Position numbers and translations under genes: made by a program
Notes under the pieces: model-generated
The model's input: only the letters and a program-made list of their open reading frames with translations
What the model was told of the DNA's origin: nothing
Database searches by the model: none
Part shown: piece by piece, positions 5,339 through 6,418 of the stretch
Layout of the letters: every line of letters begins with the position of its first letter
How positions within the stretch are numbered: position 1 is the stretch's first letter
Source: Leucoraja ocellata
Lineage: Eukaryota
Assembly (NCBI GenBank): GCA_036785375.1
Contig: JAWMAR010000404.1
Location: 1,742,811-1,800,000, forward strand
Reading direction: 5' to 3'
DNA length: 57,190 nt

Positions 5339-5646
5339 GTGTCCATTCCGATGTCGTTCTCACTCAGCCCAAGACAGGGACCGCGGTCCCTGGAGGCTCC
5401 ATCACACTGAACTGTAAAACCAGCGGGTTCACACTTAGCAGCTACGGGATGCATTTGGTCCGTCAGGTCCCCGGGCAGGGGCTGGAGTGGCTGCTTTACT
5501 ACTACTCTTCTTCTGACAAGTACTTCGCTCCAGGGATCGAGAGCCGATTTACTCCGTCCAAAGACAATTCGAATAATATGTTCACCGTGATCGCCAGGAA
5601 CCTGAAGATCGAAGACACCGCTGTCTATTACTGTGCGAGATGGGGT
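5339..5646 (+). CDS. IGHV: IgM heavy-chain V exon (possibly germline-joined V-D1)
   Basis: [51 protein letters not shown]...[12 protein letters not shown]. Both canonical Cys present; acceptor TTGCAG. Confidence 0.97.
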
Positions 5647-5684
5647 CACAGTGCTGCAAACAGCGACTTCCTCGTACAAAAACC
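5647..5684 (+). other. Recombination signal sequence, 22-bp spacer (23-type)
   Basis: Perfect heptamer CACAGTG (5647-5653), 22 nt, perfect nonamer ACAAAAACC (5676-5684). Confidence 0.97.
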
Positions 5685-5935
5685 TGGACACCTAGTTTTA
5701 TCCTGCTCCAACCTACAAGCACCGTAGGATAGGCCGTGTGAAGCAAATTCTAATGAATTTCACCGCTTAAAGTTACATGGATTGTTTTGAGAAATGTCCA
5801 ACTGTCTTCCGAACAATTAACGTTATTTTATATGAGCTTTAGAAGAACAGCGTTTAGCTTTACAAGTGACAGCGAAGAGTCCCCTGGGACATCCATCCTC
5901 TGTTAGCTGTACATGCATCAGTTCTTGAAGAGCAA

Positions 5936-6003
5936 AGTATTTGACATGACATGTTTCACTGTGTATACTATATGGCACAGCGGTTCCTACCAATACAAAA
6001 ACA
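5936..6003 (+). other. IgH D segment TATACTATATGG (5964-5975) flanked by 12/12 RSS
   Basis: 5': AGTATTTGA-12nt-CACTGTG (5957-5963). 3': CACAGCG (5976-5982)-12nt-ACAAAAACA (5995-6003). All three forward frames are open. Confidence 0.93.
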
Positions 6004-6331
6004 TCCACAACCCATAATACTGTGATCTGGGCCAGTATATGATATTTTCAATTTAATATTTCATACAACAGGAGCATAAACATGTCCCGGAATATTTCCG
6101 CATATTTTATTGTAGAGGTAACTTGAGTTAATTTATATTTTATATGTAGATGATTCTTATCACATTTCACTGCCCTGTTTAATACACGGGGCCGTGGTAT
6201 GTGATTATTGTTGGAAATGATTTTTTTAATGCATTCATTGTTTTCAAAGAGCAATAAGGCATTTGCTTTAGATGTGAAATACGAATAATTACAGGATTTT
6301 TGTTCTTTTTTTGCCTGCCTTGTGCAGATCA

Positions 6332-6370
6332 TGTTATTGTGTGAAGAACCCCATAGAATGTAACACCGTG
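6332..6370 (-). other. J recombination signal sequence, 23-bp spacer
   Basis: TGTTATTGT (6332-6340)-23nt-CACCGTG (6364-6370). Confidence 0.9.
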
Positions 6371-6418
6371 CCTATCTTGACTACTGGGGAGGAGGCACCA
6401 TGGTGACGGTAACCAGCG
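6371..6418 (+). CDS. IGHJ: IgH J segment (YLDYWGGGTMVTVTS)
   Basis: WGxG motif; phase-1 donor GTAAGA at 6419. Confidence 0.97.

What the first reader, a model, noticed from the sequence alone, without database searches (positions are those of the whole stretch)
5632..6418. Single-D IgM cluster: probable germline-prejoined V-D1 with free D2 and J (VD-D-J)
Seen: V ends TGT GCG AGA TGG GGT, six bases beyond CAR, then an RSS with a 22-nt spacer. Only one D (12/12) lies in the ~720 bp before J. Established: typical elasmobranch IgM clusters are V-D1-D2-J, with D1 carrying 12/22-type and D2 12/12 signals, and germline-joined clusters exist. Inference: TGGGGT plus the 22-RSS is the 3' remnant of D1, joined in frame by RAG in a germ cell. 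The cluster is still 12/23-compatible, needs only two somatic joins, and has a partly fixed CAR-WG CDR3 start.
Basis: partly seen in the sequence, partly recalled or inferred. Interest (0 to 1): 0.78.

Follow-up and report, generated by a model that had tools for sequence, protein, structure and literature searches.

The report
Skate IgM gene, V-D1 pre-fused
In this skate antibody (IgM) gene the V piece is already fused to the tail of the first D piece, while the second D and the J are still free, likely because the antibody-shuffling enzyme RAG once cut it in a germ cell; it is a variant of a long-known oddity of sharks and skates.

Summary
Confirmed. V ends with six extra bases that are the 3' tail of D1. 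The 38-base signal after them is D1's 3' RSS: 0-4 mismatches to it in 20 of 20 unjoined paralogs, and unrelated to V's own RSS. About 410 bases (V RSS, V-D1 interval, D1 5' RSS) are gone, cut 2 and 5 bases from the two heptamers, with no added bases. D2, J, four Cmu exons and TM1 look intact. Of 40 IgM VH loci in the assembly, 20 are unjoined and 20 pre-joined (4 VD-D-J, 13 VDD-J, 1 VD-DJ, 1 V-DDJ, 1 VDJ) in 13 junction classes, four of them duplicated. So an inherited RAG join is very likely; germline reads and expression were not examined. Germline-joined shark and skate IgH clusters are long known. The one-join VD-D-J form was not listed as germline in the reviews I could read, but the primary papers were unavailable. 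Two VDD-J paralogs carry the same V-D1 junction, hinting at a second, later germline join, but trees do not support it. The scan earlier noted a pre-joined V-D cluster elsewhere in this genome.

The parts
5120..5165 (+). Leader exon (MMSAVSLSLFLALIV)
   Evidence: the same or nearly the same leader in all 40 loci
5339..5640 (+). VH exon, open frame, mature domain from 5350; last 2 nt of the unjoined V end missing
   Evidence: (Pfam V-set E 4.8e-15)
5641..5646 (+). 3' remnant of D1 (last 6 of 11 nt), fused to V with no added bases
5647..5684 (+). D1 3' RSS, 22-nt spacer, consensus heptamer and nonamer
5685..5935 (.). D1-D2 intersegment DNA
   Evidence: 4 mismatches in 317 (RSS to RSS) to unjoined L042 and L047
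5936..5963 (-). D2 5' RSS, 12-nt spacer; nonamer has 3 mismatches, as in unjoined paralogs of the same subfamily
5964..5975 (+). D2 coding segment, 12 nt, intact
5976..6003 (+). D2 3' RSS, 12-nt spacer
6332..6370 (-). J 5' RSS, 23-nt spacer
6371..6418 (+). JH segment (YLDYWGGGTMVTVTS), splice donor at 6419
10880..11176 (+). Cmu1 exon
12599..12916 (+). Cmu2 exon
14629..14928 (+). Cmu3 exon
16732..17123 (+). Cmu4 exon with secretory tail
   Evidence: (97% to a thorny skate protein, 71% to shark IgM)
19913..20047 (+). Transmembrane exon TM1 (approximate ends)

Best explanation
This is a skate IgM heavy-chain cluster whose V segment is fused to the last six bases of D1, with D2 and J still free, likely an inherited coding joint made by RAG in a germ cell or early embryo of an ancestor. 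Shown: the V RSS, the V-D1 interval and the D1 5' RSS (about 410 bases) are gone, with 2 bases trimmed from V, 5 from D1 and none added; the remaining signals are 22/12, 12/23. Inferred: RAG paired the V 23-RSS with the D1 5' 12-RSS and deleted the interval; end joining without TdT sealed it; the change was inherited. In B cells the cluster would need two joins (D1-D2, D2-J) instead of three, so its CDR3 would begin with Cys-Ala-Arg and usually Trp, and would be shorter and less diverse on the V side. Expression is untested.
For: RSS identity and missing interval. Breakpoints 2 and 5 nt from the heptamers, no insertion, as in nurse shark germline joints with 'little evidence of TdT activity' (PMC2193156). 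Recurrence: 20 of 40 VH loci are pre-joined in 13 junction classes; 12 classes have V-D1 joined, 8 have D1-D2 removed and 3 have D2-J joined. That ranking matches the higher frequency of VH-D1 joins in nurse shark lymphocytes (PMC2435157). Paralog L036 has a 2-nt palindromic insertion before an untrimmed D1, a hairpin-opening mark. Inherited, not somatic: four junction classes sit in 2-4 diverged copies. The window locus has 23 private substitutions and a private 364-nt insertion, and its best match among 20 same-subfamily loci is 98.5%, so no unjoined twin exists. It lies in a 2.0-Mb contig.
Against: No raw reads from non-lymphoid or germ cells and no transcripts were examined. No allelic partner of the window locus was found, so zygosity is unknown. 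The window's own junction has no P or N bases, so its RAG origin rests on breakpoint position and on the family pattern. VD-D-J is a common somatic intermediate in shark thymus (PMC2435157). Two protein searches with this V found no skate VH at all, so they say nothing about use of this locus.
Confidence: 0.9

Rival explanations
1. A somatic V-D1 join from lymphocytes of the sequenced animal entered the assembly consensus.
For: VD-D-J is a frequent partial rearrangement in nurse shark thymus and spleen (PMC2435157). The tissue behind the assembly is unknown.
Against: Somatic junctions are each unique and would be outvoted in a consensus (inference). No unjoined twin of this locus is present: best identity 98.5%, with 23 private substitutions. 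The same 15-nt junction occurs in two other contigs, and other joins are duplicated in diverged paralogs.
Confidence: 0.04
2. An ordinary germline deletion, not made by RAG, happened to remove the V-D1 interval.
For: The junction has no P or N bases. One base of microhomology is possible if the parent D1 was the variant seen in L039.
Against: Both ends lie within 5 nt of heptamers. A heptamer-to-heptamer homology deletion would leave no D1 bases, yet six are kept. Twelve different junction classes remove the same interval at the same borders.
Confidence: 0.04
3. Simple loss of one D: a V with an odd 3' end and its own RSS, followed by a single D.
For: Only one intact D is present.
Against: The RSS spacer differs from the V RSS spacer at 19-20 of 22 positions and matches the D1 3' RSS; the DNA after it is the D1-D2 interval.
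Confidence: 0.01

Closest known systems
Germline partially joined IgH clusters of horn shark and little skate (V DD-J, V D1-D2J, VDJ; as summarised in PMC2193153; also PMC5192425, PMC4279169)
   Same: IgM minilocus with a V-D coding joint inherited beside unjoined clusters; the VDD-J, VD-DJ and VDJ forms are all present in this assembly too.
   Different: Only one of three joins is made (VD-D-J), so two somatic joins remain. This form is not named among germline types in the passages read; the 1988 and 1990 primary papers were not held.
Germline-joined NS4 (kappa) light-chain genes of nurse shark (PMC2193156)
   Same: Several independent joins among near-identical paralogs; trimming and P bases with little N addition.
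   Different: Light chain, a single V-J join that completes the exon; here a heavy chain stays incomplete.
Nurse shark type III IgNAR cluster with fused D1-D2 (PMC4622739)
   Same: One germline join that lowers the number of somatic joins and narrows CDR3.
   Different: Different isotype; D-D rather than V-D join; neonatal expression is known there and untested here.
Somatic 1R intermediate VD-D-J of nurse shark lymphocytes (PMC2435157)
   Same: Identical configuration and the same preference for V-D1 joining.
   Different: There it is found in lymphoid DNA and not in red-cell DNA, with unique junctions; here it is likely inherited.

Membership tests
Elasmobranch IgM cluster | Leader-V-D-D-J followed by four Cmu exons, secretory tail and TM exon | tested here: met
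   Cmu4 97% to a thorny skate protein and 71% to shark IgM
Germline-joined IgH cluster | Coding segments fused, with both RSS and the intervening DNA removed | tested here: met
Germline-joined IgH cluster | Junction processed as in V(D)J joining (short trimming, P bases, little N) | tested here: met
   V minus 2, D1 minus 5, no insertion; P-type insertion in paralog L036
Germline-joined IgH cluster | Join present in non-lymphoid or germ-cell DNA | tested here: inconclusive
   No reads examined; indirect support
Germline-joined IgH cluster | Unjoined clusters coexist in the same genome | tested here: met
   20 of 40 loci are unjoined
Germline-joined IgH cluster | Preferential expression in neonates (reported for some members only) | not tested
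   No transcript data examined
IgM1gj | Fully joined VDJ and loss of Cmu2 | tested here: not met
   D2 and J are free and Cmu2 is present at 12599-12916
Type III IgNAR-like partial join | IgNAR isotype with D1-D2 fused | tested here: not met
   IgM isotype; the join is V-D1

The most novel reading that the evidence does not exclude
RAG revisits skate IgM clusters in the germ line again and again, and this locus is a surviving intermediate. Its V-D1 junction was made first and copied, and one copy was later hit a second time to give the VDD-J clusters L031/L034, which carry the identical 15-nt junction. Small deletions exactly at RSS borders in other clusters would be cut-and-reseal (open-and-shut) scars of the same germline activity.
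Probability: 0.3. Interest if true: 0.62.

Novelty: new variant of a known kind. Interest (0 to 1): 0.38.

Why it matters
Germline RAG activity in cartilaginous fish is inferred from few joined genes, and heavy-chain joints were described as hard to dissect (PMC2193156). Here joined and unjoined heavy-chain clusters are 97-98.5% identical, so each joint can be read base by base. A one-join intermediate that is still able to recombine shows that germline events can stop after a single cut-and-join. The set of 13 junction classes gives a way to test whether germline joining follows somatic RSS preferences and whether it happens in steps. The single locus, taken alone, would not surprise a specialist.

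Tried and rejected
Simple D loss: rejected. Pseudogene reading from Leu at the conserved framework-2 Trp: rejected, because 39 of 40 VH have Leu there and 1 has Met. Derivation of the window junction from L036, its nearest neighbour upstream, by a later deletion: needs a 6-nt deletion plus a substitution, and L036 has a D2 deletion the window lacks; judged less likely than two joins. Trees: a 1610-column tree of 40 loci and a 688-column tree of 20 loci did not recover window+L031+L034 as a clade; inner branches of this subfamily are mostly weak and the loci are mosaic. Search for an allelic copy of the locus by its 3' flanks found many 96-99% paralogs and no clear allele. Protein searches with the V found no skate VH and so no expressed junction. 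Sequencing-run evidence was not obtained. A word search of earlier scan notes for stepwise or open-and-shut joins returned nothing. Seven primary papers or reviews were not held.

Full report
Observation. The window holds one leader-V-D-J set at 5120-6418. V ends Cys-Ala-Arg at 5632-5640. Six more bases follow, then a perfect RSS with a 22-nt spacer (5647-5684), one 12-nt D with 12-spacer signals on both sides (5964-5975) and a J with a 23-spacer signal (6371-6418). Four C1-set exons, a secretory tail and a TM exon follow. Cmu4 is 97% identical to a thorny skate protein and 71% to nurse shark and Triakis IgM, so this is a rajid skate IgM cluster. The frames and the splice sites inspected look intact. 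The RSS consensus used in the scans is recalled; it also appears in PMC2193153.

What the six bases are. A protein search of the own genome gave 150 matches from the 150 of 411 candidates scored. Forty have at least 71% identity to this V; the rest have 52% or less and were not examined. I fetched the other 39 loci and parsed all 40. Twenty are V-23 / 12-D1-22 / 12-D2-12 / 23-J. The window's 38-nt signal has 0-4 mismatches to their D1 3' RSS in 20 of 20, whereas its spacer differs from the V RSS spacer at 19-20 of 22 positions, and the V-D1 interval is absent from the window (alignment). The DNA from that RSS to D2 has 4 mismatches in 317 to L042 and L047. The six bases are the end of the commonest D1. 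Relative to unjoined loci, V lost 2 bases, D1 lost 5 and nothing was added. About 410 bases are deleted in all.

The family. The other 20 loci are pre-joined: 4 VD-D-J (window, L036, L037, L063, each with a different junction), 13 VDD-J, 1 VD-DJ (L046), 1 with the D1 5' RSS joined straight to a trimmed J (L033) and 1 VDJ (L059). They fall into 13 junction classes (12 plus L033). V-D1 is joined in 12 classes, D1-D2 is removed in 8 and D2-J is joined in 3. Some loci are 99.4-99.8% identical pairs and may be alleles, so loci overcount genes. A pattern search for the D1 3' RSS found 25 places, matching 20+4+1, with 0 in the control.

Why RAG. Both breakpoints lie within 5 bases of heptamers and the pairing obeys the 12/23 rule. 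L036 has a 2-base palindromic insertion before an untrimmed D1. Germline joints of nurse shark light chains also show trimming, P bases and little N addition (PMC2193156, passages). In nurse shark lymphocytes VH-D1 joining is the more frequent step and there is no strict order (PMC2435157, section 10 read whole); the ranking of germline joins here agrees. The two D1 signals are near-consensus, while the D2 5' and J signals carry 2-3 mismatches, which may explain the ranking (inference). The window's own junction has no P or N base, so for this locus RAG is inferred, not shown.

Why inherited. VD-D-J is a known somatic intermediate in shark thymus (PMC2435157, passages), so a somatic origin needed testing. 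Over 7.2-9.3 kb aligned, the window's best match among 20 same-subfamily loci is 98.5%; it has 23 private substitutions and a 364-base insertion at 7603-7966 found in none of them. A somatic join would leave an unjoined twin in most cells, and none is present. Four junction classes recur in 2-4 copies; one such pair is only 98.3% identical, which somatic joins cannot explain. No raw reads were examined and no allele of the window locus was found, so presence in germ cells and zygosity remain open.

How it would work. Two joins remain: D1 22-RSS with D2 5' 12-RSS, and D2 3' 12-RSS with J 23-RSS. CDR3 would start Cys-Ala-Arg. Trp survives if at most 3 bases are trimmed from the D1 end, and Gly if at most 1. 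Expression is untested: two protein searches with this V (16 and 61 hits) returned no skate VH. Reviews say joined clusters may be favoured early in life (PMC4279169, passages), while expression of joined horn shark heavy-chain genes was not detected (PMC2193156).

The stepwise idea. L031 and L034 (VDD-J, 99.8% identical to each other) begin with the window's exact 15-base junction and then continue into D2. For: L031 is the window's nearest locus in the V exon (11 differences in 288; next 12) and L031/L034 in the D2-J interval (2 in 395; next 3). Against: L031 ranks 12th-19th of about 20 in several flanking windows; neither tree recovers the three as a clade; the loci are mosaic; the last D2 base differs and is shared with L050; and the same trimming pattern can also be read in the unrelated class L067-L069, so coincidence is plausible. 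I put it near 0.3. Separately, five small indels sit at RSS-coding borders while the RSS is kept (L036, L046, L038, L051, and a shared one in seven VDD-J loci). Against a hand-made list of 21 multi-base, non-homopolymer indels (single-base and homopolymer indels and alignment artefacts at the joins were dropped), a binomial tail gives 0.0004 for 5 and 0.004 for 4. This test is post hoc.

What is known. Partly and fully joined germline IgH clusters are long known in horn shark and little skate, listed as V DD-J, VDJ and V D1-D2J (PMC2193153, passages), as VD-J and VD-DJ (PMC5192425, passages) or as VD-J (PMC4279169; PMC6795676, passages). Type III IgNAR has a fused D1-D2 (PMC4622739, passages). 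Eight searches were run. In the two that used the term VD-D-J, it occurred only in PMC2435157, where the passages seen describe somatic products. No listed paper held both 'open-and-shut' and 'shark' (20 of 71 listed). From PMC2192082 I saw only references, and from PMC12227049 passages with no bearing. Kokubu 1988, Harding 1990, Hsu 2006 and 2016, Lee 2008, Matz 2021 and Anumukonda 2022 were not held, and 'VD-J' in reviews is ambiguous, so I cannot claim that germline VD-D-J is unreported. I did not open supplements; Table 1 and Figure S1 of PMC2435157 would bear on the ranking of joins.

Verdict. Observation confirmed and interpretation supported. It is a one-join variant of a known kind, recurrent in this genome. 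Interest 0.38; the stepwise germline reading has probability about 0.3 and would merit about 0.62.

Noticed in passing
L036, L046 (D2 5' border), L038 (J 5' border), L051 (D2 3' border), L061/L062/L064/L065/L067/L068/L069 (J 5' border): Deletions of 3-4 bases, or a 2-base insertion, exactly at an RSS-coding border with the RSS kept; they resemble open-and-shut RAG joints (term recalled) fixed in the germ line. Rough post hoc binomial tail 0.0004-0.004.
   Followed up: partly
L031 and L034, V-D junction: Two VDD-J clusters start with the same 15-base V-D1 junction as the window; possible second, later germline join.
   Followed up: yes
window 5455-5457 and all 39 paralogs: The conserved framework-2 Trp of Ig V domains is Leu in 39 of 40 IgM VH of this skate and Met in one: a family-wide change at a core residue.
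   Followed up: partly
L033, V-J region: V is free, but the D1 5' 12-RSS is joined directly to a trimmed J with little or no D coding sequence left, so the cluster would rearrange like a light chain, in one V-J step, with a very short CDR3.
   Followed up: no
window 52290-57190 and beyond (G000:C404 near 1800672 and 1840044): Further Cmu copies without a V follow the cluster at about 40-kb spacing; the copy in the window shows only a Cmu3 hit. Other IgM contigs also show several Cmu4/TM matches.
   Followed up: no
window 7603-7966: A 364-base repeat insertion in the J-Cmu intron found in none of the 20 same-subfamily paralogs; a handy locus-specific marker.
   Followed up: partly
L061, L062, L064, L065 junction: This VDD-J class has about 10 bases that match neither V nor D1 well, which may be N addition in a germline joint, unlike most other classes.
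   Followed up: no
G000 contigs C481, C3005, C1015, C1442, C2945: Eight further VH-like exons at 49-52% identity, probably another heavy-chain isotype; their D-J layout was not examined.
   Followed up: no
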